A stretch of DNA of 43,991 nt, taken from the sequence record KP869107; one strand, 5' to 3'. The position numbers and the translations under genes were made by a program. Origin of the DNA: Escherichia coli O157 typing phage 9. Positions 771 through 38,011 of this stretch are shown here, one piece after another (the first letter of the stretch is position 1; each line of letters starts with the position of its first letter). Under the pieces are notes generated by a model, which saw only the letters and a list, made by a program, of their open reading frames with translations, did no database searches and was not told the DNA's origin.

Positions 771-875
771 GGTAAGCCCTGTTATTAGTATTGGGATTAC
801 GGTTATTTTGTGCTGACACAAAAAAAAGATCAACCATATTTGGTTTTTTATTACCTTTGAGGTACGAATAGATAT

Positions 876-899
876 GAAAAGACCGCCGGATGGCGGTCT
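876..899 (-). terminator. Rho-independent terminator after the Cro-like gene
   Basis: Hairpin agaccgcc-ggat-ggcggtct followed by T-tract on the minus strand. Confidence 0.5.
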
Positions 900-920
900 A
901 CAGAGGGTTGTGGCTGGATA

Positions 921-1151
921 TCATGAGTAGAAGAAGTATGCCAGTTCTGCTTTTGAGCGCAGCCATTGTCTTGTTTTACAGGCTTTAAAAAGCCCATTCA
1001 TCAATACCTTACCTGGCATTTTGCGCTTACCTGTTAAGTGAGTCTGGATATAGTGACTCGTCGTTCCGGCTTCCTGTGCGAAGGCTTCACGCTCATCCGG
1101 AGTAAGTGCAAGCCAGTGCTTTTTGAAATCGAAATGTCCGTTATCGCTCAT
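921..1151 (-). CDS. Cro/CII-like HTH regulator, divergent from the repressor gene
   Basis: 76 aa, ATG at 1151; HTH-like segment LTPDEREAFAQEAGTTSHYIQTHLTGKR; divergent from the repressor-like gene across a 154-bp operator region. Confidence 0.5.
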   Translation of the reverse strand: MSDNGHFDFKKHWLALTPDEREAFAQEAGTTSHYIQTHLTGKRKMPGKVLMNGLFKACKTRQWLRSKAELAYFFYS

Positions 1152-1187
1152 AGCTATTGCCTGATATTTATTTCAGATAATAAATAT

Positions 1188-1250
1188 TCACCCATAAGGT
1201 AACAAAAATCAAGGATAGTTACCTATGGGGTGCATTTACCTGTTGGGTAA
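1188..1250. promoter_or_regulatory. Operator cluster: three TTACC-N5-GGTAA-type sites between the divergent repressor and Cro-like genes
   Basis: Sites at 1188-1202 (TCACCcataaGGTAA), 1219-1233 (TTACCtatggGGTGC), 1236-1250 (TTACCtgttgGGTAA). Confidence 0.5.
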
Positions 1251-1305
1251 TATTGCTTTAAATTGAATCATCTACTGATTCATATATGAGGCGATTTTCC
1301 AGAAA

Positions 1306-1890
1306 ATGAAAAGTATCCAGGACGTCCGCAGGCAAAATCTCAACGACTTGATCGACCGTGAATTCAATGGTGTTCAGACGCGGATGGCAGAAAAACTTGG
1401 AACTCAGGCAAATCTGGTAAACCGCTGGGCTCTTGGCAAGAAGGTTATCGGCGACCAGGTTGCGCGAAAAATTGAAGCTGCCGCCAATAAACCCCGTAAC
1501 TGGCTTGATATCGATCGCTCGCTTTCTCAGGAAGGTTTTCAGCCTGTCGGACCAAGCGACATTGGTCAACTGGCGGCTCACAACCTGGAACGCTGGATGA
1601 GCGAAAGCCGCGACCTTTCAACGCAGGGAAAACTTCACCGCGCATCCGGCGTCGCCCAGGTAACAATCAGCCGCCTGTTAAACAATGAGGTCAGCGTTTC
1701 CATTTCCACCCTGGAGAATGTTGCATCCGCATTTGGGCGTCACGGATATGAATTACTGATTCACCCGCACGACCCCGCGACTATCAACTATGACCGCTCG
1801 CGCTACGCATTGTTACCTGAAACAGAGAAGGCAAAGATCGAAAGTTACATTGAATTTGTCATCAACCAGAACGAAAAAAACAAACAATAA
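1306..1890 (+). CDS. Phage repressor-like protein with two HTH domains and no peptidase S24 (autocleavage) domain
   Basis: 194 aa, ATG at 1306; two HTH-like segments (MAEKLGTQANLVNRW... and ASGVAQVTISRLLN...); no Ala-Gly/Ser-Lys cleavage module recognisable. Confidence 0.55.
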   Translation: MKSIQDVRRQNLNDLIDREFNGVQTRMAEKLGTQANLVNRWALGKKVIGDQVARKIEAAANKPRNWLDIDRSLSQEGFQPVGPSDIGQLAAHNLERWMSESRDLSTQGKLHRASGVAQVTISRLLNNEVSVSISTLENVASAFGRHGYELLIHPHDPATINYDRSRYALLPETEKAKIESYIEFVINQNEKNKQ

Positions 1891-1910
1891 AATCATATTT
1901 TTCAGTAAGT

Positions 1911-1935
1911 AAGCCGCCTTATGGCGGCTTTTTTA
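1911..1935 (+). terminator. Rho-independent terminator after the repressor gene
   Basis: aagccgcc-ttat-ggcggctt followed by ttttt. Confidence 0.55.
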
Positions 1936-1947
1936 TTGCCTATTCGA

Positions 1948-2024
1948 TTACCTAACGGGTAATTTTTTTAACTCATATCTATTGACATCAAACCAGATAC
2001 GCATAATTATTACCTCAACGGTAA
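1948..2024 (+). promoter_or_regulatory. Promoter/operator region of the recombination operon (TTGACA flanked by two perfect TTACC-N5-GGTAA sites)
   Basis: Sites at 1948-1962 and 2010-2024; TTGACA at 1983-1988; located just upstream of the 2044 and 2199 genes. Confidence 0.45.
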
Positions 2025-2043
2025 CAGACCGAGGTAACAAGTT

Positions 2044-2196
2044 ATGCAGTGGAAAATCATCAACGGTTGGTACTGCGTTACTGCATGCGGATTCATGAGC
2101 TGGAAGTTCCGCACCTTACAGGAAGGCATTAAGTGGGCTTTCGTCAGCAAAGAAGCTCGCGATGTAGCCAACGATAACGAGATATGGGAGGGCTGA
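2044..2196 (+). CDS. Hypothetical small protein (50 aa)
   Basis: ATG at 2044 preceded by gaggtaacaag; below the track's 60-aa cutoff, found by manual translation: MQWKIINGWYCVTACGFMSWKF... Confidence 0.3.
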   Translation: MQWKIINGWYCVTACGFMSWKFRTLQEGIKWAFVSKEARDVANDNEIWEG

Positions 2197-2198
2197 TA

Positions 2199-2498
2199 AT
2201 GAACGTTAATCAGCAGAAAAATCTTCAAAAAATCATGCTGGCATTCGACAAGGACTACCGCCTGTCAGAACAGCTATATGACCGACAAGTTGAACTGATT
2301 GAGAGCATCCGACTTCATCAACTGTCCTCAACTTTTGACGTTGTAACAGGCAAAGGCGTTCGTCAGGAAGTACTGGAGGCTGCTAAAGACAGCCCTGAGT
2401 TCGAAGAACTGATGGATGCCTATCGGCGAGAGGCAATGGCAATTATCGCCCGCTGGGATCTGGCGGATCAGCTTGATGGACAGAGGGACGCGGCATGA
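2199..2498 (+). CDS. Hypothetical protein (99 aa), translationally coupled to the downstream recombinase
   Basis: ATG at 2199 with GGGAGG RBS; stop overlaps the ATG of the next gene (ATGA). Confidence 0.45.
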   Translation: MNVNQQKNLQKIMLAFDKDYRLSEQLYDRQVELIESIRLHQLSSTFDVVTGKGVRQEVLEAAKDSPEFEELMDAYRREAMAIIARWDLADQLDGQRDAA

Positions 2499-4255
2499 AA
2501 CCGGGAATTTATTTCGACATCAGCAACGAAGACTACCACGCCGGTGACGGCGTGAGTAAGTCGCAACTGGACATGGTTGCCAAGAATCCGTCGCTTCTTA
2601 AATGGGTCCAGGCAGCACCAGAAGACGAAGAGAAAAAGTCTGCACTGGATATTGGAACCGCATTGCACTGTCTGCTTCTGGAGCCTGGAGAATTCGACAA
2701 ACGCTTCATTGTTTCACCGAAGTTCGATCGTCGGACGAAACAAGGTAAAGCTGACGAAGAAGCATTTCTTCGTGATGTAGCGGATATGGGGATTACGGTA
2801 CTTGATGCCGAGCAGTGGCGGAAACTGGAGCTGATGCGTGATAGCGCAATGGCTCACCCGGCGGCACGCTGGATGCTGGAAGCACCTGGTTTCTGCGAAG
2901 CATCAATGTACTGGAATGATGAAGATACTGGTGAGTTGTGCCGCATTCGTCCAGACAAATGGCTGAACGAGCACAACGTGATCGTCGACGTGAAAAAGGT
3001 TGCAGATATGGACCGTTTTGCACGCCACATCGAGGAATTCCGCTACCACGTGCAGGACGCAATGTACCGCGAAGGCGCAATGAGGGTTACTGGTCAGCCG
3101 CATGGTTTTTTCTTTCTTGCCGTGAGCGAAAGCATTGATTGTGGTCGGTATCCGGTACGCGTGTTCGAGCTGGATGCGCCGGATGTCGATGCCGGGCACG
3201 CTCTGTTCCGCCGGGATCTGAATACCTATCACGAATGCCGCATAAATGATGAATGGGGCGGTGTGGAAATCATTAAACGCCCTGAGTGGGCACGCAAAAC
3301 AGGATATGTACATATGAGCAACGACATCGCAAACATCAACGCACCAGTAGACACAGCAATCGCTGGAACTGCTGCAACTATTTTCAGCCCAGACGGCTTG
3401 AACCAACTGATGAAATTCGCCGAGGTAATGGCGCAAAGCCGCGTAACGGTACCGGCGCACCTCGCCGGGAAACCAGCTGATTGCATGGCCGTGGCAATGC
3501 AGGCTGCGCAGTGGGGAATGAACCCGTTTGCCGTGGCTCAGAAAACCCATGTTGTGAACGGCACGCTAGGTTATGAAGCCCAATTAGTAAACGCAGTTAT
3601 CTCAACGATGTCGCCAACAAAAGATCGCATCAACTACGAGTGGTTCGGGCCGTGGGAACGCGTGATCGGTAAGTTTGTTGAGAAAACATCCAAAAACGGC
3701 AATCCATATATCGCACCAGGCTGGACTCTAAAAGACGAAGAAGGCTGCGGTGTTCGCGTATGGGCAACCATGAAGGGCGAGGATCAACCTCGAGTGCTTG
3801 AGTTAATGCTGTCTCAAGCACAGGTAAGAAACTCCACACTTTGGGCCAGTGATCCGAAACAACAACTCGCATACCTTGCGACAAAACGCTGGTCTCGCTT
3901 GCACTGTCCTGACGTAATCATGGGCGTCTACACACCAGACGAATTACAGGAAACGGCACCGCGCGTTGAGCGAGACATTACTCCGCAAACGACCACTGCT
4001 GCGGGAATGAACAGTCTGATCAACGCTAAACCAGTGAAAAAGCCTGATGAGCAAACTCGTAAAGCGGATAGCCGTGATCCAGAAGAAATGCTGATGGCCT
4101 TTACCAGCGCAGCGATGAATTACAGCACTGTCTCCGAACTGGATAAGGCTTACAAATACATTGCACAAAAACTTTCAGATGATGACGAACTGCTGGCAAA
4201 AGCCACCGACGTTTACAGCGTTCGTCGGGAAGAATTAAACGAAACATCTATGTAA
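2495..4255 (+). CDS. Recombination protein: N-terminal PD-(D/E)XK exonuclease domain fused to a C-terminal RecT/Bet-family annealase domain
   Basis: 586 aa; N-term DIGTALHCLLLEPGEFDKRFIVSPKFDRRTKQGK (PD-(D/E)XK / exonuclease VIII-like signature); C-term MAVAMQAAQWGMNPFAVAQKTHVVNGTLGYEAQ (RecT/Bet-like); single uninterrupted ORF. Confidence 0.65.
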   Translation: MKPGIYFDISNEDYHAGDGVSKSQLDMVAKNPSLLKWVQAAPEDEEKKSALDIGTALHCLLLEPGEFDKRFIVSPKFDRRTKQGKADEEAFLRDVADMGITVLDAEQWRKLELMRDSAMAHPAARWMLEAPGFCEASMYWNDEDTGELCRIRPDKWLNEHNVIVDVKKVADMDRFARHIEEFRYHVQDAMYREGAMRVTGQPHGFFFLAVSESIDCGRYPVRVFELDAPDVDAGHALFRRDLNTYHECRINDEWGGVEIIKRPEWARKTGYVHMSNDIANINAPVDTAIAGTAATIFSPDGLNQLMKFAEVMAQSRVTVPAHLAGKPADCMAVAMQAAQWGMNPFAVAQKTHVVNGTLGYEAQLVNAVISTMSPTKDRINYEWFGPWERVIGKFVEKTSKNGNPYIAPGWTLKDEEGCGVRVWATMKGEDQPRVLELMLSQAQVRNSTLWASDPKQQLAYLATKRWSRLHCPDVIMGVYTPDELQETAPRVERDITPQTTTAAGMNSLINAKPVKKPDEQTRKADSRDPEEMLMAFTSAAMNYSTVSELDKAYKYIAQKLSDDDELLAKATDVYSVRREELNETSM

Positions 4256-4304
4256 CCACCACCGCGGCGCCACACGCGCCGCACTGCAACCAAGAGAGGT
4301 ATTT

Positions 4305-4553
4305 ATGAAAGGTGCATTAGGTAAGAAGGAACTCCTGGCGGTGGTGCCACTGTCATGGAGCACTATCGACCGTATGGAGCGCGCAGGGGAATTTCCTAAA
4401 CGCTGGTATATCACTGACAAACGCTGCGCATGGAACCGTGACGAAGTTGAGCGTTGGCTTGATGAACGTCAGGCAGCAAGCCCGGCAGAGTTCCAGGGTA
4501 AAAAACCTCCTGTTCAGCAACGTGTATATCGTCCCGTGAGCAACGCTGCATGA
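4305..4553 (+). CDS. AlpA/excisionase-like DNA-binding protein
   Basis: 82 aa, AGAGAGG RBS; MerR-like HTH pattern LLAVVPLSWSTIDRMERAGEFPKRWYI typical of AlpA/Xis. Confidence 0.6.
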   Translation: MKGALGKKELLAVVPLSWSTIDRMERAGEFPKRWYITDKRCAWNRDEVERWLDERQAASPAEFQGKKPPVQQRVYRPVSNAA

Positions 4554-4662
4554 GTGCGCTGCTAAGGCACTGGAGCAAATGGTCAGGATGGTACTTATTC
4601 CTGGCCTCTGTTTCAGCATGGCTTTATCTGCTGGCATTAATTTTCAGAGAGGGTTGGATTAA

Positions 4663-5605: not shown

Positions 5606-5796
5606 ACAGGGCATCACCAGCAGATTTAAGGAAATGCCTTGAAACTGCAAACATGCTTGCACACAGCGGGATAAGGTTTGTTCCAATTCCCGCTGTCACT
5701 GATGCTGAATTTGCAACACTGTCAGCAATATTCGCAGATAAAATTGAATCACTGGCAGCAGAAGCCGAGATGGAAGAAAATCAGCAGAATAATTAA
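5602..5796 (+). CDS. Hypothetical small protein (64 aa), start overlapping the methylase stop
   Basis: ATG at 5602 within gcagcATGAac (ATGA overlap); convergent with integrase. Confidence 0.35.
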   Translation: MNRASPADLRKCLETANMLAHSGIRFVPIPAVTDAEFATLSAIFADKIESLAAEAEMEENQQNN

Positions 5797-7050: not shown

Positions 7051-7092
7051 AATTCACCCGTATAAAAACCATTTTCATGACGGTATGAGAGT

Positions 7093-7339
7093 ATACCTTT
7101 AAGGTAATACCGTCACCTGTACCGCCGAAAAATATGGTGTAGAGTGAATAGAAATGAATACATAAAAACAAAAACCCTCTGTAAAAACAGAGGGTTAAAT
7201 TAGTATCTGAATAGGAATGAGTTGCTATGAGTTAGCTGTTAATCATTCCCACTCAATTATTTACGGCAACCATAACCAATTGAGTGATAACATTTTTCCA
7301 AAACTTCATTTTTTTAGTACCGTTTTATATACCGTCACC
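7093..7339. promoter_or_regulatory. Candidate attP / integrase control region
   Basis: Noncoding stretch upstream of int with direct repeats taccgtcacc (7108-7117 and 7330-7339), 9-bp inverted repeat cactcaatt/aattgagtg (7250-7286), and a TTACC-type site at 7093-7107. Confidence 0.3.
7165..7196 (-). terminator. Rho-independent terminator after the lysis cassette
   Basis: Hairpin aaccctctg-taaaaa-cagagggtt with T-rich tract on the minus strand. Confidence 0.5.
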
Positions 7340-9165: not shown

Positions 9166-9324
9166 AATTACCACCGTTTACTGTGCATAAAGAACCCCCT
9201 TAGTTGGTGAGTCCATTATACACAATAAACCATATATGGTTAAAATAACTTAGAATTGATCCTATCGAAATTACCCGATAGGTGATATTATTTATTGAAA
9301 TAATACAGCTTAACGTACCTGGTC

Positions 9325-12981: not shown

Positions 12982-13137
12982 GTTAAATCTCCAGATAGTC
13001 GCAGCACCCGTTGCGCCGCATATCCGGTTATTCTATTACCTGAAAAACCACATATGGATAGATAACACATAAATACGAACAGATATTACCTTTCAGGTGA
13101 TTCGCAAAACGTGCTGGATAGCAAACAAATTATTTGC

Positions 13138-13157
13138 TACTGTGTATTTATACAGTT
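13138..13157. promoter_or_regulatory. LexA (SOS) box
   Basis: tACTGTgtatttatACAGtt, 17/20 match to taCTGTatatatatACAGta; about 20 bp upstream of the ATG at 13177. Confidence 0.6.
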
Positions 13158-13176: not shown

Positions 13177-13434
13177 ATGCCGCAGTATCACTATCCACTG
13201 GAAGACGGATTTACCGAAAGGATTCACACGCCGGGAGGCGTCAGGTCACTGGTGGAGGGATCGCACTTGATGAAATTACTCCGGGATCTCGATAAGGATG
13301 GATTTAATGTCGATGGCCCACTTGCCGAACTGACTGCACTGATTAACTACGTCACCAGCTCACAGATGTCCATGCGGGATCTGCAAACACATCTCGACTA
13401 TTGTGCCGAACAATTACGAAAACAAACCAGATAA
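13177..13434 (+). CDS. Hypothetical small protein downstream of the LexA box (candidate SOS-induced factor)
   Basis: 85 aa from ATG 13177 with GGAGAAG RBS (track ORF 13111-13434 starts earlier). Confidence 0.45.
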   Translation: MPQYHYPLEDGFTERIHTPGGVRSLVEGSHLMKLLRDLDKDGFNVDGPLAELTALINYVTSSQMSMRDLQTHLDYCAEQLRKQTR

Positions 13435-13452: not shown

Positions 13453-13493
13453 GGAGTGCTTATATTTACCGCAAAGGTAAATATAAGCACTCC
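13453..13493. promoter_or_regulatory. 41-bp perfect palindrome (18-bp arms, 5-nt centre) containing TTACCgcaaaGGTAA
   Basis: ggagtgcttatatttacc-gcaaa-ggtaaatataagcactcc read directly. Confidence 0.6.
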
Positions 13494-13746: not shown

Positions 13747-14331
13747 ATGACAGCTACAAAAAGCACGTCCATTTTTTCTTTCGAATCCCAAGCCGATATA
13801 CGGGTAATCGTCATTAATGGTGAGCCATGGTTTATCGCTTCAGATGTTTGTCGGGCTATAGGCATAGCAAACCATCGAGATGCTGTTCGAAAACTTGATG
13901 ATGATGAGAAGGGTGTCGCTTCAACCGACACCCCTGGCGGTGAGCAAGAATCGATCATCATCTCCGAGTCAGGACTCTACACACTGATCCTCCGCTGCCG
14001 CGATGCGGTGACACCAGGCACTATCCCCTACCGCTTTCGTAAATGGGTTACAGGTGAGGTTCTTCCTCAGATCCGCCGCACCGGAAGTTACATTAAAAAC
14101 TCGCTCCCGCAGGAAGAACGCATAAAGATGGTTGCCGACCAGGTAGCCAACGCCACGGCGTCAGCAGTAATGCAGGCGATGAAGATAGAGAACAAAACCT
14201 ACAGTGCCCCACTGAAGCCCGGCTACCGTAGCCTGATTCATTCGCCGTCTGGTGTTCTCGGCCTGACGGAGCACTCACTGCTGATGAACAGGACGACGGG
14301 CATGATGTATCAGGCGCGGCGGCGGAGCTGA
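13747..14331 (+). CDS. Bro-N domain protein / putative antirepressor
   Basis: 194 aa; N-term FESQADIRVIVINGEPWFIASDVCRAIGIANHRDAVRKL typical of Bro-N/antirepressor proteins. Confidence 0.65.
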   Translation: MTATKSTSIFSFESQADIRVIVINGEPWFIASDVCRAIGIANHRDAVRKLDDDEKGVASTDTPGGEQESIIISESGLYTLILRCRDAVTPGTIPYRFRKWVTGEVLPQIRRTGSYIKNSLPQEERIKMVADQVANATASAVMQAMKIENKTYSAPLKPGYRSLIHSPSGVLGLTEHSLLMNRTTGMMYQARRRS

Positions 14332-18924: not shown

Positions 18925-21434
18925 TGCGGAATATCTCCGGAGAATCTCTGACGCTTCTGTGTCAGATCAAGAACAACGGGAGAACCATCATCTTTTAGCA
19001 GATAACCAGTACCAAGTTTCACCAGGTACTGACTATCGCCGTAACTTTGCAAACCATACTGACCAGGCGGTGTTTTTATCCCTGTGCCAACAACTTGTTC
19101 ATTCCAAGCCTGATTAACCTGCTTATCGAATTGCTCTGCAGACATTCCCCACGGCAAAAGAACATTCCCCATTCCGTTATAGTCATGCACGCCACCTGTA
19201 GCTACGTTAACAGCCTGTTTCCAGATATCATTGTCAATTTCGCCTGATACCACGCCTTTTTTCGCCATCACACCAGCGTAATAGTCCTTTGCGATCTCGT
19301 ATGCCATTGATGCCCCCTGAGCATCACCAGCAAATGCATCCTTCACCATGTCAGAAAACTCAAGGCGAAGATCAGCATCTTTAGGCATCGGAATACCTTT
19401 CGCGTCATCAGTACCTTTACGAGCCGCCGCGCCAGCAAGAATTGTCTGCGCAGCGGTTTCTGGAGACACGGAAACATCCGGATTAAACCAGTTTTTTTCT
19501 GCCAAAATACCACCTGGCTTATCCATCAGTATCCCGGCAACGGCAGCAGATGGAGCGTTGGCACTGATCTGCTGTAGTGCTGACATATACACCTGCCCAC
19601 CACCAGTGCTCTGCCTGATGGTATCGAGATATGCTGCCTGTTGGGAAACGGGCGCATCACGAAAGAAAACACCGATCTGATTGGCCTCGTCTTTGGAAAA
19701 GAACGTCAGTGGAGTGCCATATGACTTAGCAAGGTCACTGACCTGAGCAGCACGCAAGGCAACGCTCTGTCCAAAGTTATCCTTATTGCTCATGTCGATA
19801 GGCTTTGCCTGTCCGGCGGCAAGAGAGAACTGTACAGGATCAGCCTGTCGCTGCTTTATCACCTGACTTGCAGCCGACACAACGTTGTCATAAAGAGCGG
19901 CTCGTGCCGCATAACCCTCCCCTGTCTCACCAGTATCCGGGCGTAATTGCTCAACATATGCTGTAATGCTGCTTGTCGGCATGTTGCGGAAAGAGCCTAT
20001 ATACTGTCCGGCGATTTGCGTATTTCTGAACTCGGTATATCGCAGGTTTCCTTCTCTTACTCCATAAGCTGCAATAAAATCAGCCTCACCAGGTGGGTTA
20101 GGAAATTCAACGCCACGCATATACGCAGCTGTCGCATCGCGAACCTGGCTGTCAATCATCGTTTTATATTCAGCCTGCTGCTGCCGACGCAGTTGATCCG
20201 CCTGTCGCATAAAACTTGCCTGCGCCTCAGGAGATGCCGCATCGAATGCTGCATTACCGGTATAGCGTTTGGTGTTGGTTGGAATTGTTGATAAACCAAG
20301 TGCTGCACTGACACCAGCAGTTAACTGCTGATCACTGTATGGCTGGCTACCGTTCTCATGATGGATAATGGCTGCACAAAGCGCCTTCAGGGTATCAGGA
20401 TTAGATGCATCGAGAGGCTCATCAGCAGAAACGCCAAGTTGTTCGCACACTGCTTTGATATACGACATAGTGTCATTTTTATCAGCAGGCGGTGCCCAGC
20501 GATTAATTATCTCGCTGACGGTATCAATACCCTGCCTCTGATACGACATCAGGTTCCGCCCTAATGCACGAATCCCGTGTTCAGGTGTTTCGAATTTAGC
20601 AAATCGACCATCATCACCGGTCTGGCCTACCCACGGATTAGTTTTGCTGTATTCGAGATTTCCTGGGTTATTGTTGCGTATGCCACGGGCACGCTCGGAA
20701 GAGTCACTATCTGCTACAGCACGGCGAGCTCCAGCAGCAGTATCACTTAACTCGCCATTACTTTGGATGAATGCGGTCGCATTGTTTGCCGACCACTGGG
20801 ACAATGCAGCATCAGCAACCTTCTCTTTAAACTCGATTTTCTTGGCCTGGATTTGCTCGTTGCTCCAGCCACGTGCAACACCGTACTCCTCAATTTGCTG
20901 GAAAGTTTGCTTGTTAGCCAATACGTATGCGGCGTTGTCGCCATACAATGCTGCGGCATTTTTACCATTGTTCAGCAGTGTCGCCTGAAACTGGCCTTCT
21001 TCGTAGGCATTAATTTGCCCTATCTCGTGTCGCCCGGCCTGCGTAGTGAACTGAATGCGCTGCTGCTGCGCCTGCTGCATGAAAGCATTACGAGCCTGTT
21101 CATCCGGCAGCGACATAGCCAGTTGTTCGACCTGAGCATCAAACTGCTGCGTATACTCATGGCCTTTTCCAATAGCATTTTTCCCTTTCAGGTTAAGCAA
21201 TCCTGTTTCAGGATTATTCAGCAGATCGCTGCTTATCTGACTGAGGTTAAGAGATGCTTCCTGAGCCAGAGCGATATTGGCACGCTGTTTTGCCTGCCCC
21301 AAAACATCAATTGCCTCTGTCCCTGCCCGAACAAAAGCATCACCAATACCTTGCTGAGAAAACGTCTGCAAGCCTGCTGACTGAACTCCACGACTCTCAA
21401 CCTGACGTCCGGATACTGTTGGTACGACTGGCAT
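18921..21434 (-). CDS. Virion internal/ejection protein with a possible peptidoglycan-hydrolase-like segment
   Basis: ATG at 21434 with GGAGGA RBS (track start 21509 lies inside the upstream gene); contains RGIRNNNPGNLEY motif. Confidence 0.5.
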   Translation of the reverse strand: MPVVPTVSGRQVESRGVQSAGLQTFSQQGIGDAFVRAGTEAIDVLGQAKQRANIALAQEASLNLSQISSDLLNNPETGLLNLKGKNAIGKGHEYTQQFDAQVEQLAMSLPDEQARNAFMQQAQQQRIQFTTQAGRHEIGQINAYEEGQFQATLLNNGKNAAALYGDNAAYVLANKQTFQQIEEYGVARGWSNEQIQAKKIEFKEKVADAALSQWSANNATAFIQSNGELSDTAAGARRAVADSDSSERARGIRNNNPGNLEYSKTNPWVGQTGDDGRFAKFETPEHGIRALGRNLMSYQRQGIDTVSEIINRWAPPADKNDTMSYIKAVCEQLGVSADEPLDASNPDTLKALCAAIIHHENGSQPYSDQQLTAGVSAALGLSTIPTNTKRYTGNAAFDAASPEAQASFMRQADQLRRQQQAEYKTMIDSQVRDATAAYMRGVEFPNPPGEADFIAAYGVREGNLRYTEFRNTQIAGQYIGSFRNMPTSSITAYVEQLRPDTGETGEGYAARAALYDNVVSAASQVIKQRQADPVQFSLAAGQAKPIDMSNKDNFGQSVALRAAQVSDLAKSYGTPLTFFSKDEANQIGVFFRDAPVSQQAAYLDTIRQSTGGGQVYMSALQQISANAPSAAVAGILMDKPGGILAEKNWFNPDVSVSPETAAQTILAGAAARKGTDDAKGIPMPKDADLRLEFSDMVKDAFAGDAQGASMAYEIAKDYYAGVMAKKGVVSGEIDNDIWKQAVNVATGGVHDYNGMGNVLLPWGMSAEQFDKQVNQAWNEQVVGTGIKTPPGQYGLQSYGDSQYLVKLGTGYLLKDDGSPVVLDLTQKRQRFSGDIPQ

Positions 21435-30620: not shown

Positions 30621-30688
30621 ATCAATGACTCCGTACGCAATTAAATTATTACCAATTTAACCACATATGATTTATTTATCGTAGATAG

Positions 30689-30725
30689 TTGACATTTAAC
30701 GCACGAATTATTACCTTTCAGGTAA
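30689..30725. promoter_or_regulatory. TTGACA plus perfect TTACC-N5-GGTAA site
   Basis: gttgacatttaacgcacgaattaTTACCtttcaGGTAA; same architecture as the site at 1983-2024. Confidence 0.4.
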
Positions 30726-33265: not shown

Positions 33266-33858
33266 TGATTACCATCCTGACGTTCTTTGAGTCGCTTCCT
33301 GGCTGCCGCTATGCGATCAGCAATTGTCACATTCACATTAACATCCAGGCGTTCTTTGAATGCGTTGACGTCGACGTGCTTACCAATCAGTTCGAGGTTC
33401 TTCACCTTGTCAGGCCATTTAATTTTTTTGAGGATTGTCTCTATCGAATCCTCGTTCATGTTCATGATGGTCGATGACAGATCAAAGCCACTAAGCGTAG
33501 TGCGCCAGATTTTCGGCCACTCACGGATTGGTTTAAGGCTCCCATCGTCGTTGAGGATATCGATCACGTCCATCTGGTCGATCTCCACCAGGCGCATGAG
33601 AACGTAATCAGCACTGACGCGCATTCGTTTGTTGCGCTCCTCCATCAACTCGGCAATCCGTTTTTGAATGCGTTCATCGCGCATCATGACACTGGCTTTA
33701 ACTGCCGCTGTATTTGGGGAGAATCCTGCGTTAATCGCTGCCTGAGTCTGGTTTTCAGGCGTTTTGATGTATGACTGGCAATAAGCCTCCTGCATTGCTG
33801 TGAGCGGCTTAAATTGCGTTGATTTGCGTTTATAGGTTTTAGGTTCAGCAGGCATCAT
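33262..33858 (-). CDS. terS: Terminase small subunit
   Basis: About 198 aa from ATG 33858 (GGTGG RBS); directly upstream of TerL. Confidence 0.6.
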   Translation of the reverse strand: MMPAEPKTYKRKSTQFKPLTAMQEAYCQSYIKTPENQTQAAINAGFSPNTAAVKASVMMRDERIQKRIAELMEERNKRMRVSADYVLMRLVEIDQMDVIDILNDDGSLKPIREWPKIWRTTLSGFDLSSTIMNMNEDSIETILKKIKWPDKVKNLELIGKHVDVNAFKERLDVNVNVTIADRIAAARKRLKERQDGNQ

Positions 33859-33862
33859 AACC

Positions 33863-33897
33863 ACCGTGGTAATAGTTACCGTTGTGGTAATAGTACC
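33863..33897. promoter_or_regulatory. Tandem 17-bp direct repeats containing GGTAATAG(T)TACC immediately upstream of terS
   Basis: ccgtggtaatagttacc / gttgtggtaatagtacc read directly. Confidence 0.4.
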
Positions 33898-33901
33898 ATG
33901 C

Positions 33902-33927
33902 AAAATAAAGCCGCCATAGTTGGCGGC
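33902..33927 (-). terminator. Rho-independent terminator between the early/middle genes and the late (terminase) operon
   Basis: gccgcca-tagt-tggcggc with T-rich tract on the minus strand. Confidence 0.5.
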
Positions 33928-33976
33928 AGTATTCAAAACCCATCAAATTCATCATGCATAATCTACTCGTAACATG

Positions 33977-34315
33977 TCACACTATTAATTTCGTTTCATG
34001 CCAGCCTTTAGTCACCCAGCATTGCGAGTCACCATTACACGGGCATGAATTAACTGGAACTCTCTCGCCGCACTTACCGCAACGTTTTCTGCTGATCGAT
34101 TTTATACGCCCGTGCACGCGTGCATCATCCTGGCGGATCAGTAACGCTATATACTCACCAAATTCGTAAGGCGCACGCCCGGGGCGACGCGTAGCACAGT
34201 TACGCTCCAGCATTTCAATTTCCTGAGCATCAAGCACAATTTCCAGCTTACGCACACCAGATGCAGCTTGTCTGGCTCTCTGAGCGGCTTTGCGCTCTGC
34301 TGCTGATTTAGCCAT
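33977..34315 (-). CDS. Small protein with RHH-like N-terminus and C-terminal Cys cluster (candidate regulator)
   Basis: ATG at 34315 with AAGGT RBS; RKLEIVLDAQEIEMLER (strand-helix pattern) and CGKCGERVPVNSCPC. Confidence 0.4.
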   Translation of the reverse strand: MAKSAAERKAAQRARQAASGVRKLEIVLDAQEIEMLERNCATRRPGRAPYEFGEYIALLIRQDDARVHGRIKSISRKRCGKCGERVPVNSCPCNGDSQCWVTKGWHETKLIV

Positions 34316-34589
34316 CAATATTTACCTTTATCGCGTATACCTTTACCGGTTTATCGCCGAAGTGCGGATGTGTGATTGTCTTGATTTCATATCCGTCATA
34401 CGGAACATCAATTCTACGGCTGGAATCGTCGCGCTTCGGATATCCCTTTGTGATAATCAGGCGGTCATACTCCCGGAACATAATTCGCTTATTCCAGTAG
34501 TCATTACACAGGCGATACTCTTCCGTTTTCTCTCCGCGAATCATGGCATCGAAGTATTCACCTTTGACGGCAAGTTGCAGGTTAGCCAC
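34308..34589 (-). CDS. ASCH-like domain protein
   Basis: 93 aa; AVKGEYFDAMIRGEKTEEYR...LIITKGY pattern; GTG start with GGAGG RBS. Confidence 0.45.
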   Translation of the reverse strand: MANLQLAVKGEYFDAMIRGEKTEEYRLCNDYWNKRIMFREYDRLIITKGYPKRDDSSRRIDVPYDGYEIKTITHPHFGDKPVKVYAIKVNIDG

Positions 34590-35283
34590 GGTTAACCTCC
34601 AGTTGTGGTGCTGCTTCTATAGCAGCCCTGTAACCAGCAGCATGACCGCGAAAGTTAGCAATCTCTGATAGCCACGCTTTAATCATGGCCTGAGTTGGCT
34701 CCTTCGGCACCATAACCCAACTATCCGGAGTTCCCGGAGAGTTGCCAGCCAGTCTACGCAACACAGCCTTAACCGCCTCAATACGGTCATCATCAACTTT
34801 TTCTACAATATTGGAATTTAAATACTTCGAAGCCTTGCTATGCCAATCGCTGGTTTTAGGGTCTTGTCCATCCATCAAACGCCAAGCTTCAGCGATTAAC
34901 TCATAGCCAGTAACAGTGGCTTCCTGCGCATCACCAATCAGTTGTGTGATCTCTCTTTCAAGCATGCTTAGAGCGTTAGGCATTGGTTTTTCTTCAGGTA
35001 CTACTGGCACCGGAGGGGCGGCATAAACAGGAATAACGTCCGCTTGCTCTTTATTGCTTTCATCCGTTAAAGCCCAGAATAATTTCCCGGCCGGATGTTT
35101 GAAAATATAAGCAACTGGCTCTGCTTCCAGCGATGCCAGCGTAATTTCGGCCAGCTTGAGGTGAATAACCGCCGCATCAGAAGCGCCCGGGACTCTTTCC
35201 ACCGCACCGCGAAGAACCTCAATATTCTTCTTAGCCTGCTCAATCAACTGCTCTTTGGTGAACTCTTTGGTAATAGTGGTCAT
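34582..35283 (-). CDS. Hypothetical protein
   Basis: 233 aa ORF, ATG start; no family recognised. Confidence 0.45.
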   Translation of the reverse strand: MTTITKEFTKEQLIEQAKKNIEVLRGAVERVPGASDAAVIHLKLAEITLASLEAEPVAYIFKHPAGKLFWALTDESNKEQADVIPVYAAPPVPVVPEEKPMPNALSMLEREITQLIGDAQEATVTGYELIAEAWRLMDGQDPKTSDWHSKASKYLNSNIVEKVDDDRIEAVKAVLRRLAGNSPGTPDSWVMVPKEPTQAMIKAWLSEIANFRGHAAGYRAAIEAAPQLEVNRG

Positions 35284-35488
35284 TTATTAATCCTCAAAAC
35301 TTTATGCCCGGGCGCAAAAGCACGCGTTTTGTCTTTGCTTATTCGCCAGCCATCCTTACGTGCCTCTTTTGCACAGCCAGCCCATGACGTACCGATATAC
35401 TCACCGAAGTCTGGCGTTTGATATTTACCATTTGTACACTGGCGACAATCACAGTAGAGATGCATGGTGTAACTTGCGGCAATAGCCA
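35280..35488 (-). CDS. Small Cys-rich hypothetical protein (69 aa)
   Basis: ATG at 35488 with AAGGAG RBS; CDCRQC...C cluster. Confidence 0.45.
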
Positions 35489-35490
35489 TA

Positions 35491-35682
35491 TCAGTCTCCT
35501 TTAGCGCGCAGGTGGTTTTTCCAGCGGTTTTGCGCCGCGCTGCGCTTATCTTTGATTCCCTCTCTGGCAATTCCAGAATATAAGTACAACACCACACGGC
35601 GATTGCTAACTCTCAACCACTGGCTGGGATAGCAACGTCTGTATACACGGGAAATAAGCATCTTTGCTTTACGGTTTTTCAT
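35491..35682 (-). CDS. Arginine-rich micro-protein (63 aa), paralogue of the upstream ORF
   Basis: MKNRKAKMLISRVYRR...; start overlaps the stop of the previous ORF (ATGA). Confidence 0.35.
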   Translation of the reverse strand: MKNRKAKMLISRVYRRCYPSQWLRVSNRRVVLYLYSGIAREGIKDKRSAAQNRWKNHLRAKGD

Positions 35683-35861
35683 CTTACTGCGTACCCTTTC
35701 TTCCGCCTGTTCTGTGACGCGCTGGGCTTTTTGCAACAACTGTGCCCCATCACCCCGCAACACCCCGTCAACCTCACTCGTCTGTTACTAATCCTCAACC
35801 AGCGCCAGACCCCAACACCGTTTCTGCGAGCTAACAGAATTTTTGCCTTACGGTTTTTCAT
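35679..35861 (-). CDS. Arginine-rich micro-protein (60 aa)
   Basis: MKNRKAKILLARRNGVGVWRWLRISNRRV...; start overlaps the stop of the previous ORF (ATGA). Confidence 0.35.
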   Translation of the reverse strand: MKNRKAKILLARRNGVGVWRWLRISNRRVRLTGCCGVMGHSCCKKPSASQNRRKKGYAVR

Positions 35862-35953
35862 CGTTTTGCTCTCCTGCGTTTCTTTGCTTCGCGTCGTGCA
35901 GCCGCAATACCGGTATGGCGGCGCTTTGGTGCAGGGATGATGTTGTCAGCCAT
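35858..35953 (-). CDS. Arginine-rich micro-ORF (31 aa)
   Basis: MADNIIPAPKRRHTGIAAARREAKKRRRAKR; stop overlaps the next ATG; weak RBS. Confidence 0.2.
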   Translation of the reverse strand: MADNIIPAPKRRHTGIAAARREAKKRRRAKR

Positions 35954-36033
35954 CAGGACATGCGGCTTTGCAATTAGCGCAGAAGCCCAAAATCGAGTCG
36001 GATACGGTAACAAGCCGATACATGCCACACGCA

Positions 36034-36732
36034 TTACTCACCTCCTTTGATGCGAATGCCAGCGGCGCGTGGCACATTAACTTCCACGATGCGCACAGTT
36101 GGTTTGTACATCTCAATCGCTGTCAGCCAGTCAGCGCCAGTCATGCGCTTTTCTGCATCGCCATTAGTCCACTTAACCGGTACACCAATAGCCTTCATCG
36201 CGATTTCTATTTCCCCGGCAATGGCGCTTTTTCCGCAACCAGTAAAACCAGAAACAACGACAAGAACTTCACCTTTGGCTGGCTTTATTTCCCGTGCTTC
36301 CAGTTCAGCAATACGCTTACTCCCATCCGAGATAACACCTTCGTAATACTCGCGTTGCTCGTTGAGTTTTGATTTTGCTTCCTCAAGCTCAACACGCAGT
36401 TTCCCTACCGTTAGCGCAATATCCTCGTTCTCCTGGTCACGGCGTTTGATGTATTGCTGGTTTCTTTCCTGTTCATCCAGCAGTGCCAGCACGGTAGCCG
36501 GGTTAGCCTCTGCTATGAATTCAGCGTTTGCATAAGCCTGAGCATCTGATTCAATCAGGCAGTTAACATGACATTCCGCAATCACACCACCGGGTTCTCC
36601 TTTCCATTTTTGGCAAACAAAAACTCCTGTTAAATTGCCGTGCTGGTTAACAGATGTATGCCCTACGATGTAGCTTCCTTTAGTTGCTTTCTCTGCCTTT
36701 TCACGCAGTGCCTGATAGTTAATTTGGGTCAC
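36034..36732 (-). CDS. Hypothetical protein (possibly Ead/Ea22-like, coiled-coil)
   Basis: 232 aa; GTG start with GGAGGA RBS; central coiled-coil-like region. Confidence 0.4.
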   Translation of the reverse strand: MTQINYQALREKAEKATKGSYIVGHTSVNQHGNLTGVFVCQKWKGEPGGVIAECHVNCLIESDAQAYANAEFIAEANPATVLALLDEQERNQQYIKRRDQENEDIALTVGKLRVELEEAKSKLNEQREYYEGVISDGSKRIAELEAREIKPAKGEVLVVVSGFTGCGKSAIAGEIEIAMKAIGVPVKWTNGDAEKRMTGADWLTAIEMYKPTVRIVEVNVPRAAGIRIKGGE

Positions 36733-36938
36733 TCTTCATCCTCCAAGTCGGCAACGGCGTCCATCACATCAGAACCGCGAATAACCTCAAAAGCACGGCA
36801 GGCCATTTGAAATACCAGTTGCTCTTGCGGATGCGGTGATTCCCAATATTTGAATCCAGGGCGATGCGCGTACCCCATCATTGAATAAAAATCACCAGCA
36901 AGCTTAATCGCGGCATCAACAAGCTCTCTGTTAGTCAT
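36729..36938 (-). CDS. Hypothetical small protein
   Basis: ATG at 36938 (track start 36986 would overlap the upstream gene); stop overlaps the next start (GTGA). Confidence 0.35.
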   Translation of the reverse strand: MTNRELVDAAIKLAGDFYSMMGYAHRPGFKYWESPHPQEQLVFQMACRAFEVIRGSDVMDAVADLEDEE

Positions 36939-36949
36939 TCTTTTTCCGC

Positions 36950-37525
36950 TCACTGGTTGCCTCCTTTGCGAATCTGTTCCGCCCATTCTTCTAGGGATTT
37001 CTCCGCATATTCACCGGACAGGCCATCAATCGGGTGTGGTTCATTAGCCAACTCTTCTTTCGCTGACAGAATCATGCGTGTAACGTCGAAAACTTCACGT
37101 AAAGACTTATTGATAAATCCGTGATTGAAAGCAGCAGCAAGACGGCTTGCGGTATAGTTAATCCCCTCGTTGCGTGCTTCCGCACGAATTTCAGCCAGGA
37201 AAGCATCGGTGGCTGGAATGGGCTTTTGTGGTGATATAGCAATGCGAATTGTCTCAAGGTCTGGATCTGTTTCCGCTGCTGGCACCTTGATATAACCCAT
37301 CTGCACCCCATTCATGATGAACCTGCGACGGTCATCACATATCGCCTTCAGCCCCGCATTCTCCGCCGCCATCGCATTAGCACGCACCAGTTGCACTTCC
37401 AGTTGCGTTGCCAAATCGCTGATCAGCTTTGCCACACTACGCATATCAACGGCACCACATTCTGCTTTCAGTTCCGAAGCCATCTCATGCCCGGCGGAAA
37501 CTAACCCTTTGATATTACTTTCCAT
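36950..37525 (-). CDS. Hypothetical protein
   Basis: 191 aa ORF, ATG start. Confidence 0.4.
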   Translation of the reverse strand: MESNIKGLVSAGHEMASELKAECGAVDMRSVAKLISDLATQLEVQLVRANAMAAENAGLKAICDDRRRFIMNGVQMGYIKVPAAETDPDLETIRIAISPQKPIPATDAFLAEIRAEARNEGINYTASRLAAAFNHGFINKSLREVFDVTRMILSAKEELANEPHPIDGLSGEYAEKSLEEWAEQIRKGGNQ

Positions 37526-37586
37526 CTTTACCCTCGCTTATCCACATAACTTATTGATTACATTGATAACTAAAAAGATCGTCGAT

Positions 37587-37931
37587 TCAGAACTCTTCGA
37601 TATTCCAGCCACCACCTGCTTTCTTTGGTTTAACCGTTACCCCGATGATTCGGAACGGATACTGATCTGCGGCGACTTTGGTTTTCACCCTGGCGTCGTC
37701 GGTCCAGAAACCTTTCACTTCGTGCAGTTCCATCTCTCCGGTGGCGAGCATCACAGCGAAATCGGGCGTATAAAACGTGTTGTCAGCCAGCCGCAGCTTG
37801 ATACCCTCGAACCGATACCAGGCGACTTCCCCTGCACGTTTACGCTGCTCAAGGTGCTGGCAATACGCAGATTCTGTTTTGTTCATCTGGCCTGTTTTGA
37901 GTCGACCAAGAGCCTGTATCTGTTTTCTCAT
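37587..37931 (-). CDS. DUF1064-like phage protein
   Basis: 114 aa; pattern EVAWYRFEGIKLRLADNTFYTPDFAV...HEVKG recalled as DUF1064, common in lambdoid early regions. Confidence 0.5.
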   Translation of the reverse strand: MRKQIQALGRLKTGQMNKTESAYCQHLEQRKRAGEVAWYRFEGIKLRLADNTFYTPDFAVMLATGEMELHEVKGFWTDDARVKTKVAADQYPFRIIGVTVKPKKAGGGWNIEEF

Positions 37932-37934
37932 GAT

Positions 37935-38011
37935 TTACCTCTAAGGTAATTAAAAACCACATAAGACACGAAATCAATAGATCTAAGAATATTTTGTTAC
38001 CCATTAGGTAA
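37935..38011. promoter_or_regulatory. Two perfect TTACC-N5-GGTAA sites between the P-like and DUF1064 genes
   Basis: 37935-37949 TTACCtctaaGGTAA; 37997-38011 TTACCcattaGGTAA. Confidence 0.45.

What the first reader, a model, noticed from the sequence alone, without database searches (positions are those of the whole stretch)
851..38011. A 15-bp palindrome TTACC-N5-GGTAA recurs at 13 or more intergenic sites across the phage
Perfect copies at 1236-1250, 1948-1962, 2010-2024, 13466-13480, 30711-30725, 37935-37949, 37997-38011; one-or-two-mismatch copies at 851-865, 1188-1202, 1219-1233, 7093-7107, 9271-9285, 13086-13100. A fixed 10-base pattern is expected about 0.07 times by chance in 39 kb on both strands. 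Every copy I found is intergenic: repressor/cro region, recombination operon, integrase, acyltransferase, tailspike/LexA-box region, antirepressor leader, portal operon and replication genes. This looks like the operator (or a promoter element) of one phage-encoded dimeric regulator controlling nearly every transcription unit, most plausibly the double-HTH repressor at 1306-1890.
Basis: seen in the sequence. Interest (0 to 1): 0.75.

Follow-up and report, generated by a model that had tools for sequence, protein, structure and literature searches.

The report
Prophage repressor operators scattered across phiV10
The repeated 15-bp palindrome is real and is almost certainly the operator of the phage's lysogeny repressor. 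The same motif at the same positions is already annotated as repressor-binding sites in the sister phage epsilon15, so this is ordinary biology.

Summary
The window is phage phiV10 (99.97% identical), circularly permuted, with a 4.6-kb Stx2-phage fragment at its right end. TTACC-N5-GGTAA occurs 8 times perfectly (0.01 expected) and 14 times with at most one mismatch (0.79 expected). All 14, plus the two-mismatch copy at 1219, lie in the 6.7% of the phage that is intergenic (P about 4e-17).

The same motif sits at syntenic positions in epsilon15, SPC32H, Tyrion, BUCT711, ZX5 and a Serratia prophage. The epsilon15 RefSeq record already annotates seven of its copies as repressor-binding sites.

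The gene at 1306-1890 is a full-length homolog of SPC32H Rep (PDB 5D50), and its N-terminal recognition helix is conserved across the family. Several sites overlap or flank sigma-70-like promoters, and two promoters carry operator pairs 62 bp apart.

By homology Rep is a tetramer, not a dimer. Only its N-terminal helix-turn-helix domain is the DNA binder. The Cro-like p41 probably shares the sites. The motif is known for the genus but is not annotated in the phiV10 record. Interest is low.

The parts
851..865 (.). Operator, 1 mismatch (TTACCTTTGAGGTAC). It lies just after the p41 terminator and 17 bp upstream of the -35 of a candidate promoter for p42 and the replication genes (minus strand: TTGATC-N17-CAAAAT).
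   Evidence: a syntenic 1-mismatch copy in Tyrion (35365)
1188..1202 (.). Operator O1 of the cro-rep divergent region, 1 mismatch (TCACC...). It fills the spacer of the leftward promoter for the Cro-like gene p41 (TTGATT 1212..1207, N17, GAATAT 1189..1184).
1219..1233 (.). Operator O2 of the cro-rep region, 2 mismatches in phiV10. The same position holds a perfect copy in epsilon15, SPC32H and BUCT711.
1236..1250 (.). Operator O3 of the cro-rep region, perfect. It is 17 bp from O2 (start to start) and 55 bp upstream of the rep start codon.
1306..1890 (+). Rep (phiV10 p40), the prophage repressor. Modelled layout: N-terminal HTH DNA-binding domain (helices 24-31 and 35-43), middle HTH_3-like domain, C-terminal helix.
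   Evidence: PDB 5D50 at E 4e-42 over residues 1-190; Foldseek top hits 5D50 and 5D4Z; Pfam HTH_3 at 106-147; AlphaFold model; the identical protein in ZX5 blocks lytic growth when overexpressed (PMC9782041)
921..1151 (-). Cro-like protein p41, a likely second binder of the same operators.
   Evidence: phrog_35 'transcriptional repressor', E 5.6e-13; invariant AGTTSHYIQ.HLT segment in 5 genomes; Cro-like position in the genome
1948..1962 (.). Distal operator of the early-left (PL-like) promoter, perfect. It follows the rep terminator and lies 19 bp upstream of the -35.
2010..2024 (.). Proximal operator of the PL-like promoter (TTGACA 1982-1987, N17, AATTAT 2005-2010). The operator's first T is the last base of the -10, so it covers the start site. 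It is 62 bp from the distal operator.
7093..7107 (.). Motif copy, 1 mismatch (GGTAT on the int strand), 42 bp upstream of int. It sits inside a longer hairpin (TGACGGTA...TACCGTCA). Its role as an operator is uncertain.
   Evidence: the same mismatch is conserved in 5 genomes; epsilon15 annotates this spot as an RNase III site and an Int arm site, not a repressor site
9271..9285 (.). Operator, 1 mismatch, in the divergent oac / lysis-cassette region. It lies about 30 bp upstream of the conserved CCATATATGGTT-N7-TATAAT element of the lysis operon.
13086..13100 (.). Operator, 1 mismatch, between the tail-fibre gene p25 and the Ant homolog p24, upstream of the LexA box.
   Evidence: annotated as a repressor site at the homologous epsilon15 position 19895-19911
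13140..13155 (.). LexA box (CTGTGTATTTATACAG) directly upstream of the Ant homolog. This is the induction input of the switch.
13177..13434 (+). p24, homolog of the small antirepressor Ant of SPC32H, which inactivates Rep.
   Evidence: 88% identity to SPC32H Ant, E 4e-56; annotated 'ant' in KC911856.1
13466..13480 (.). Operator, perfect, abutting the -10 of a candidate promoter for the Bro-N protein p23 (TTGCAA 13438-13443, N17, TATATT 13461-13466). It is the centre of a perfect 41-bp palindrome, 13453-13493.
30711..30725 (.). Operator, perfect, upstream of the gp3/portal structural operon. It also overlaps the -10 (TACCTT) of a conserved divergent TTGACA-N17 promoter.
   Evidence: annotated as a repressor site at the homologous epsilon15 position 2931-2947
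33858..33872 (.). It ends 2 nt before the probable true TerS start codon (33855).
33876..33890 (.). It is 18 bp from the previous copy and follows the p55 terminator.
   Evidence: annotated as a repressor site at the homologous epsilon15 position 12-27
37935..37949 (.). Proximal operator of the p45-p55 operon promoter (minus strand: TTGATT 37977..37972, N17, TTTAAT 37954..37949). It ends 3 nt before the p45 ATG.
37997..38011 (.). Distal operator of the same promoter. It is 62 bp from the proximal one and follows the terminator after the P-like replication gene.
   Evidence: annotated as a repressor site at the homologous epsilon15 position 35906-35922

Best explanation
The (A)TTACC-N5-GGTAA(T) palindromes are the operators of the phiV10 lysogeny repressor Rep (p40, 1306-1890).

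Inferred from homology to SPC32H Rep: pairs of Rep N-terminal helix-turn-helix domains each read one palindrome, one ACC/GGT half-site per domain. The protein works as a tetramer, so one molecule can hold two operators.

Inferred from promoter geometry:
- At three promoters (early-left 'PL', the p45-p55 operon and the Bro-N gene p23) an operator abuts the -10 hexamer and covers the transcription start.
- At the Cro-like gene's promoter the operator fills the -35/-10 spacer.
- PL and P(p45) each have a second operator exactly 62 bp upstream, just after the preceding terminator. This would allow cooperative or looped binding that traps the promoter.
- Single operators lie upstream of the lysis, tail-fibre and portal/structural units, and a tandem pair lies upstream of terS. 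In a lysogen Rep would therefore silence nearly every transcription unit directly, not only the early ones.

Induction (by homology with SPC32H): DNA damage removes LexA from the box at 13140-13155, the small antirepressor p24 is made, and it takes the Rep tetramer off the DNA.

Shown here: the sites, their statistics, their intergenic placement, their synteny in relatives, and the homology of Rep and Ant. Inferred: actual binding, stoichiometry, looping, and repression of the late units.
For: 1. The motif is enriched far beyond chance and confined to intergenic DNA. It is the top palindrome in an unbiased count.

2. Three copies sit in the divergent rep/cro region. This is the classical layout of an immunity region.

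3. The epsilon15 RefSeq record annotates seven sites as 'protein_bind: repressor'. Their sequences are (A)TTACC-N5-GGTAAT, and they lie at positions homologous to window 33876, 30711, 13086, 1948/2010 and 37997.

4. There are 8-11 perfect copies at syntenic positions in epsilon15, SPC32H, Tyrion, BUCT711 and ZX5, and 7 perfect copies in 20.6 kb of a Serratia prophage. The internal spacings of 17-18, 30-31 and 62 bp recur in the five phage genomes; the Serratia prophage keeps the 18-bp pair but has 75 bp in place of 62.

5. p40 matches SPC32H Rep over its whole length (PDB 5D50, E 4e-42; Foldseek top hits). The predicted HTH is helices 24-31 and 35-43. N36, R40 and W41 are invariant in 17 homologs down to 52% identity, and NLVNRW is invariant in five phage genomes. 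This matches the invariant half-site.

6. SPC32H Rep binds palindromic DNA as a tetramer through N-terminal domains and is released by Ant (PMC9638917 and PMC9986798, both citing Kim et al. 2016).

7. p24 is 88% identical to SPC32H Ant and is preceded by a LexA box.

8. Operators overlap conserved sigma-70-like promoters.

9. Overexpressing the identical repressor of phage ZX5 abolished free phage and cut holin and endolysin transcripts by more than 99.9% (PMC9782041).
Against: No binding data for phiV10 exist in what I could read. The primary papers that may define the operators (Kropinski 2007; Kim and Ryu 2013; Kim 2016) were not retrievable, so the epsilon15 annotation may be computational.

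The motif never varies across the family. Covariation therefore cannot separate Rep from the equally conserved Cro-like p41 or from other conserved phage regulators.

At the lysis, tail-fibre and portal units the operator lies roughly 30-40 bp upstream of the conserved promoter-like element, where simple occlusion would not work. These sites may instead serve the divergent promoters.

The int-upstream copy is embedded in a hairpin that epsilon15 annotators assigned to RNase III and Int.

The site upstream of oac is awkward, because oac is a lysogenic-conversion gene expected to be on in lysogens.
Confidence: 0.85

Rival explanations
1. The sites are primarily the operators of the Cro-like protein p41 (921-1151). 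Under this reading p41, rather than Rep, turns down transcription units during lytic growth.
For: p41 occupies the Cro position. It hits a phage 'transcriptional repressor' family (phrog_35). It carries an invariant HTH-like segment, AGTTSHYIQ.HLT, in all five genomes, as invariant as the motif itself.
Against: The epsilon15 record assigns the sites to the repressor. In characterised switches Cro and repressor share operators, so p41 binding would most likely be additional, not exclusive. The repressor alone blocks lytic transcription in ZX5 (PMC9782041).
Confidence: 0.07
2. The motif is the binding site of another conserved phage regulator that coordinates all operons. Candidates are the p55 'transcriptional regulator' (33977-34315), the AlpA-like p36 and the PerC-like p34.
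For: p55 is conserved across the genus and belongs to a phage transcription-regulator family (phrog_536, E 1.5e-54). Several sites lie upstream of late units that look activator-dependent.
Against: Three sites cluster in the rep/cro switch region, and others overlap the -10/+1 of strong early promoters. That is a repressive geometry. The late units share a different conserved element, CATATrTGGTT, which is a better candidate activator site.
Confidence: 0.04
3. The motif is a host-factor site or a promoter element read by host RNA polymerase, not the site of a phage protein.
For: The sites are associated with promoters. The operator's first T coincides with the last base of the -10 at three promoters.
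Against: The motif is a perfect dyad. Its position relative to -35/-10 varies: start-site-proximal, in the spacer, 17-19 bp upstream of the -35, and 30-40 bp upstream of late elements. It is kept identical in phages of Escherichia, Salmonella, Klebsiella, Enterobacter and Serratia. No E. coli regulator with this consensus is known to me (from memory).
Confidence: 0.03
4. The palindromes act as RNA hairpins (terminators, RNase III sites or translational operators), not as DNA sites.
For: The 13466 copy is the tip of a perfect 18-bp-stem hairpin. The 7093 copy lies in a hairpin annotated as an RNase III site in epsilon15. At p45 the right half-site overlaps the Shine-Dalgarno sequence.
Against: A 5-bp stem with a 5-nt loop is too weak on its own. 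The spacer is A/T-rich and unconserved. Many copies lie upstream of the inferred start site, so they would not be transcribed. Real terminators sit next to the copies, not on them.
Confidence: 0.01

Closest known systems
Repressor-binding sites annotated in Salmonella phage epsilon15 (NC_004775.2 / AY150271.2)
   Same: The core is identical, (A)TTACC-N5-GGTAAT. The positions are homologous: before terS, before gp3/portal, between gp19 (Ant) and the tail fibre, downstream of rep before the early-left operon, and after the replication genes.
   Different: phiV10's own record carries no such annotation. The epsilon15 annotation lists 7 sites. It omits the three in the rep/cro region, the lysis-upstream copy and the second copy of the post-replication pair, all of which are present in its sequence. 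phiV10 has two sites before the early-left operon where epsilon15 has three, and it adds sites at 851 and 13466.
Rep-Ant lytic switch of Salmonella phage SPC32H (PDB 5D50 and 5D4Z; Kim and Ryu 2013; Kim et al. 2016)
   Same: p40 is a full-length homolog of Rep. p24 is 88% identical to Ant. A LexA box precedes ant. SPC32H carries the same motif at the same places.
   Different: Rep identity is only 42%, although Ant identity is 88%. phiV10 has an extra Bro-N protein, p23, with its own operator. The oligomeric state and binding mode of the phiV10 protein are inferred, not measured.
Lambda CI/Cro with OR and OL
   Same: Divergent repressor and cro genes with three dyad operators between them. There is a second operator cluster at the early-left promoter, operators overlap the -10/-35, and cooperative binding between operator sets is likely.
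   Different: The repressor has no S24 autocleavage domain and is induced through an antirepressor. Operators also sit at the terS, portal, tail-fibre, lysis and int units, not only at two early promoters. The half-site spacing is N5, not lambda's N3 (lambda figure from memory).
Globally dispersed operators of phage P1 C1 and the mycobacteriophage L5 gp71 'stoperators' (from memory; not checked here)
   Same: One repressor has many sites spread over the genome, so most transcription units are silenced directly in the lysogen.
   Different: Those sites are asymmetric and bound by monomers. The phiV10 sites are perfect dyads, are strictly intergenic and promoter-associated, and number about 15.
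pLS20 Rco and other TetDloop tetrameric looping repressors (PMC9986798)
   Same: That paper reports that SPC32H Rep has an N-terminal DNA-binding domain and a C-terminal p53-like tetramerisation domain proposed to support DNA looping. The 62-bp operator pairs bracketing promoters here would fit such looping.
   Different: Looping by Rep has not been shown. phiV10 Rep has an extra middle dimerisation domain. The pairs here are short-range (62 bp), unlike long-range loops.

Membership tests
epsilon15/SPC32H-type (Uetakevirus) Rep-operator system | A Rep protein homologous over its full length, with an N-terminal HTH domain, a middle dimerisation domain and a C-terminal tetramerisation/Ant-binding domain | tested here: met
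   phmmer against PDB: 5D50_A at E 4e-42 over residues 1-190. Foldseek top hits are 5D50 and 5D4Z. The AlphaFold model shows the N-terminal domain with four helices (4-19, 24-31, 35-43, 50-59), a second helical domain and a long C-terminal helix.
epsilon15/SPC32H-type (Uetakevirus) Rep-operator system | A conserved recognition helix in the N-terminal domain | tested here: met
   NLVNRW (residues 36-41) is invariant in phiV10, Tyrion, BUCT711, epsilon15 and SPC32H. N36, R40 and W41 are invariant in 17 homologs down to 52% identity.
epsilon15/SPC32H-type (Uetakevirus) Rep-operator system | The operator motif (A)TTACC-N5-GGTAA(T) | tested here: met
   The annotated epsilon15 repressor sites have exactly this core. 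phiV10 has 8 perfect and 6 one-mismatch copies. The pooled consensus from 55 sites is W-A-TTACC-wwWww-GGTAA-T-W.
epsilon15/SPC32H-type (Uetakevirus) Rep-operator system | Sites at syntenic intergenic positions: rep/cro, early-left, the unit after the replication genes, terS, portal, tail fibre/ant, lysis | tested here: met
   Site lists and regional alignments A1-A4, A7, A8, A10 and A11.
epsilon15/SPC32H-type (Uetakevirus) Rep-operator system | A small LexA-controlled antirepressor (Ant) as the induction route, and a repressor without an autocleavage domain | tested here: met
   p24 is 88% identical to SPC32H Ant. The LexA box CTGT-N8-ACAG lies at 13140-13155, just upstream. Pfam finds no S24 peptidase domain in p40.
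epsilon15/SPC32H-type (Uetakevirus) Rep-operator system | Direct, sequence-specific binding of Rep to the motif, with repression of the adjacent promoters | not testable with these tools
   This needs EMSA, footprinting, ChIP or reporter assays. Indirect support only: ZX5's identical repressor blocks lytic transcription (PMC9782041), and SPC32H Rep binds palindromic sites as a tetramer (PMC9638917, citing Kim 2016).
Lambda-type CI repressor (S24/LexA-like autocleaving) | A C-terminal S24 peptidase domain that mediates RecA-stimulated self-cleavage | tested here: not met
   Pfam finds only HTH families in p40. A distant N-terminal-domain relative in Pseudomonas phage PseuP_224 is a longer, 245-aa cI whose C-terminal half has no counterpart in p40. 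That this C-terminal half is an S24 peptidase is my reading of the sequence and was not checked. phiV10 Rep works like CI at its operators but is not a member of this family.

The most novel reading that the evidence does not exclude
The evidence does not exclude that Uetakevirus Rep is a true global, loop-forming repressor. Under this reading one tetramer clamps the conserved 62-bp operator pairs around PL and P(p45). Single operators 30-40 bp upstream of the activator-type late promoters (lysis, tail fibre, portal) silence or insulate those units by bridging to distant sites.

The operator and the recognition helix are invariant in phages of five host genera, even though Rep overall has diverged to 42% identity. 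The whole genus would then form a single DNA-recognition (immunity) group, unlike the many immunity types of lambdoid phages.
Probability: 0.3. Interest if true: 0.45.

Novelty: already known. Interest (0 to 1): 0.2.

Why it matters
The result gives phiV10 a complete operator and promoter map that its database record lacks. phiV10 is an O157:H7 typing and reporter phage. The map also corrects the TerS start codon and identifies p24, not only the Bro-N protein, as the likely LexA-controlled antirepressor. These points are useful for engineering phiV10-based reporters and for predicting cross-immunity among epsilon15-like prophages of E. coli, Salmonella, Klebsiella, Enterobacter and Serratia. 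It does not reveal a new kind of system. The motif and its assignment to the repressor are already in the epsilon15 record, and the repressor family has solved structures.

Tried and rejected
1. Primary literature. Kropinski 2007 (epsilon15 genome), Perry 2009 (phiV10), Kim and Ryu 2013 and Kim 2016 (SPC32H Rep/Ant) are not held. Text searches for the motif or for epsilon15 operators found nothing relevant. I relied on the epsilon15 GenBank annotation and on secondary descriptions (PMC9638917, PMC9986798, PMC9782041).

2. Covariation test (does the motif change when the recognition helix changes?).
- The viral-contig scan returned only 80 loci with 100% identical Rep.
- The search with the N-terminal domain alone returned only fragments.
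- The full-length search gave homologs down to 52% identity, with small helix variants (NLVSRW, NLISRW). The Serratia prophage carrying NLISRW still has the unchanged motif.
- The test is therefore uninformative: nothing varies.

3. A distant N-terminal-domain relative fused to a longer C-terminal region that I read as an S24 peptidase (Pseudomonas phage PseuP_224 cI) showed no comparable palindromes near its gene. I dropped this line.

4. Uniform promoter geometry. I looked for one fixed operator-promoter arrangement. It holds for PL, P(p45) and P(p23), but not for the terS, portal, tail-fibre, lysis or int sites. No single occlusion model fits all sites.

It was redone with permitted homologs.

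6. Technical note: loci fetched together in one turn were only partly available to Python. BUCT711 and ZX5 were therefore analysed with the pattern and alignment tools instead.

Full report
**What the window is.** Window 1-33976 matches phage phiV10 (NC_007804.2) positions 33988-1 on the minus strand, and 33977-39374 matches 39104-33707. Identity is 99.97-100%. The window therefore holds a whole, circularly permuted phiV10 genome with a 282-bp overlap. Window 39375-43991 is a fragment of a 933W/Sakai-type Stx2 phage carrying portal and terminase genes. I transferred the RefSeq gene map onto window coordinates.

**The observation.** TTACC-N5-GGTAA occurs 8 times perfectly against 0.01 expected, and 14 times with at most one mismatch against 0.79 expected.

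These fall inside the annotated phiV10 TerS ORF. However, epsilon15, ZX5 and Tyrion all start TerS at the ATG that directly follows the second copy. The phiV10 start is therefore probably 81 nt too far upstream, and the pair is intergenic.

With that correction, all 14 copies lie in the 6.7% of the phage that is non-coding (P about 4e-17). The two-mismatch matches split 21 coding to 1 intergenic, which is background. The single intergenic one (1219) sits where relatives have a perfect copy. An unbiased count of all short-arm palindromes puts this motif first by a wide margin.

**Relatives.** The same pattern occurs 8-11 times perfectly in epsilon15, SPC32H, Tyrion, BUCT711 and ZX5, and 7 times in 20.6 kb of a Serratia prophage. 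The positions are syntenic:
- a tandem pair before terS;
- one copy before gp3/portal;
- one copy between the small antirepressor gene and the tail fibre;
- one copy before the lysis cassette;
- one copy before int, with the same mismatch everywhere;
- two or three copies after rep, before the early-left operon;
- three copies between rep and the Cro-like gene;
- a pair after the replication genes.

Start-to-start spacings of 17-18, 30-31 and exactly 62 bp recur in the five phage genomes. The Serratia prophage keeps the 18-bp pair but has 75 bp where the others have 62. Pooling 55 sites gives the consensus W-A-TTACC-wwWww-GGTAA-T-W, with ACC/GGT invariant and an A/T-rich spacer.

**Already annotated.** The epsilon15 RefSeq record carries seven 'protein_bind: repressor (lysogeny)' features. 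Their sequences are (A)TTACC-N5-GGTAAT. They correspond to the phiV10 sites at 33876, 30711, 13086, 1948/2010 and 37997. The phiV10 record has no such features.

**The protein.** The ORF at 1306-1890 matches the SPC32H repressor over its whole length (PDB 5D50, E 4e-42). Foldseek with an AlphaFold model returns only 5D50 and 5D4Z as strong hits.

The model gives an N-terminal domain with four helices (4-19, 24-31, 35-43, 50-59), whose HTH is helices 24-31 and 35-43. The segment NLVNRW in the second of these is invariant across five phages. N36, R40 and W41 are invariant in 17 homologs down to 52% identity. This matches the invariant half-site.

Secondary sources describe SPC32H Rep as follows:
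- it has an N-terminal DNA-binding domain, a middle dimerisation domain (the region Pfam calls HTH_3) and a C-terminal tetramerisation domain that also binds Ant;
- it binds palindromic sites as a tetramer, with the domain pairs contributed in trans;
- it is removed from DNA by a tetrameric antirepressor (PMC9638917, PMC9986798).

The identical protein in phage ZX5 abolished free phage when overexpressed and cut holin and endolysin mRNA by more than 99.9% (PMC9782041). That paper defined no operators.

p24 (13177-13434) is 88% identical to SPC32H Ant. It is preceded by a LexA box at 13140-13155.

**Promoter geometry.**
- *PL:* a conserved TTGACA-N17-AATTAT promoter, whose final T is the first base of the operator at 2010. 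A second operator lies 62 bp upstream, just after the rep terminator.
- *p45-p55 operon:* the same architecture, terminator, distal operator, 19 bp, TTGATT, N17, TTTAAT, proximal operator, ATG. It is conserved in five genomes.
- *p23:* TTGCAA-N17-TATATT abuts the operator at 13466.
- *Cro-like gene:* the operator at 1188 fills the spacer of TTGATT-N17-GAATAT.
- *851:* this site is of the distal type, upstream of a candidate p42 promoter.
- *Lysis, tail-fibre and portal units:* the operator lies about 30-40 bp upstream of a different conserved element, CATATrTGGTT-N7-TAwwA. Direct occlusion is unlikely there. These operators may act by bridging, or may serve the divergent promoters. One example is a conserved TTGACA-N17-TACCTT promoter overlapping the 30711 site.
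- *int-upstream copy:* it lies within a hairpin that epsilon15 annotates as RNase III and Int sites. Its role is uncertain.

**Which protein binds.** Covariation could not be used, because nothing varies. Even the Serratia prophage, whose helix variant is NLISRW, keeps the same motif. The Cro-like p41 is equally conserved and belongs to a phage repressor family. It probably shares the operators, as Cro does in lambda. Other rivals are disfavoured by the dyad symmetry, the variable placement relative to promoters, the cluster in the rep/cro switch region, and the weakness of a 5-bp stem. These rivals are a late activator, a host factor or promoter element, and RNA hairpins.

**Verdict.**
- Rep is a tetramer, not a dimer, by homology;
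- only the N-terminal HTH domain reads DNA;
- p41 is probably a co-binder.

The system is the known epsilon15/SPC32H Rep-Ant switch with genome-wide operators. The feature is already annotated in the type phage of the genus and is simply missing from the phiV10 record. Interest is low. Three questions remain open: whether the 62-bp pairs are looped, how the upstream operators at the late units work, and whether the genus forms one immunity group.

Noticed in passing
window 39375-43991; also 1-282 versus 39093-39374: The window is not one natural molecule. After a complete, circularly permuted phiV10 genome with a 282-bp overlap, the last 4.6 kb is a 100%-identical fragment of 933W/Sakai-type Stx2 phages carrying portal and large terminase genes. 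This suggests a chimeric or concatenated assembly.
   Followed up: partly
window about 147, and 39210-39358 (inside the replication-initiator gene p43): The two copies of the overlap differ by 12 bp. This is one unit of a TGGTTATATGAC tandem repeat (3.4 copies). Next to it are 24-bp and 18-bp repeats (ATCCCGTTTTTGGGATCATTCAAC, 2.6 copies). These look like origin iterons inside the initiator gene, as in lambda O.
   Followed up: partly
window 33855-33936 (minus strand): The annotated phiV10 TerS start (33936) is probably 27 codons too far upstream. epsilon15, ZX5 and Tyrion start at the ATG equivalent to 33855, directly after the second operator.
   Followed up: yes
window 9228-9241, 13046-13056, 30659-30669 (minus strand); weaker copies at 37955-37965 and 835-845: A second conserved element, CATATrTGGTT-N7-TAwwA, precedes the lysis cassette, the tail-fibre gene and the gp3/portal operon. 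Upstream of gp3 it lies within a leader of about 60 bp that is almost invariant in five genomes. It may be an activator-dependent late promoter.
   Followed up: partly
window 13453-13493: The operator at 13466 is the centre of a perfect 41-bp palindrome (18-bp arms, 5-nt loop), immediately downstream of the Ant homolog p24. It could also form a strong hairpin at the 3' end of the ant transcript.
   Followed up: no
window 13177-13434 versus 1306-1890: The antirepressor homolog p24 is 88% identical to SPC32H Ant, yet the repressor it should bind is only 42% identical to SPC32H Rep. phiV10 also carries a Bro-N 'antirepressor' (p23, 13747-14331) with its own operator. Which protein induces phiV10 is unclear.
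   Followed up: partly
window 7080-7125 (minus strand): The int-upstream motif copy sits in a conserved hairpin (TGACGGTA...TACCGTCA). The epsilon15 record annotates the equivalent region as an RNase III site and an integrase arm site. This may be retroregulation of int.
   Followed up: no
window 33969-33980: A near-palindrome, GTGACATGTTAC (perfect GTGACATGTCAC in epsilon15, Tyrion and ZX5), overlaps the stop codon of the p55 regulator gene, just before the terminator that precedes the terS operators. Its function is unknown.
   Followed up: no
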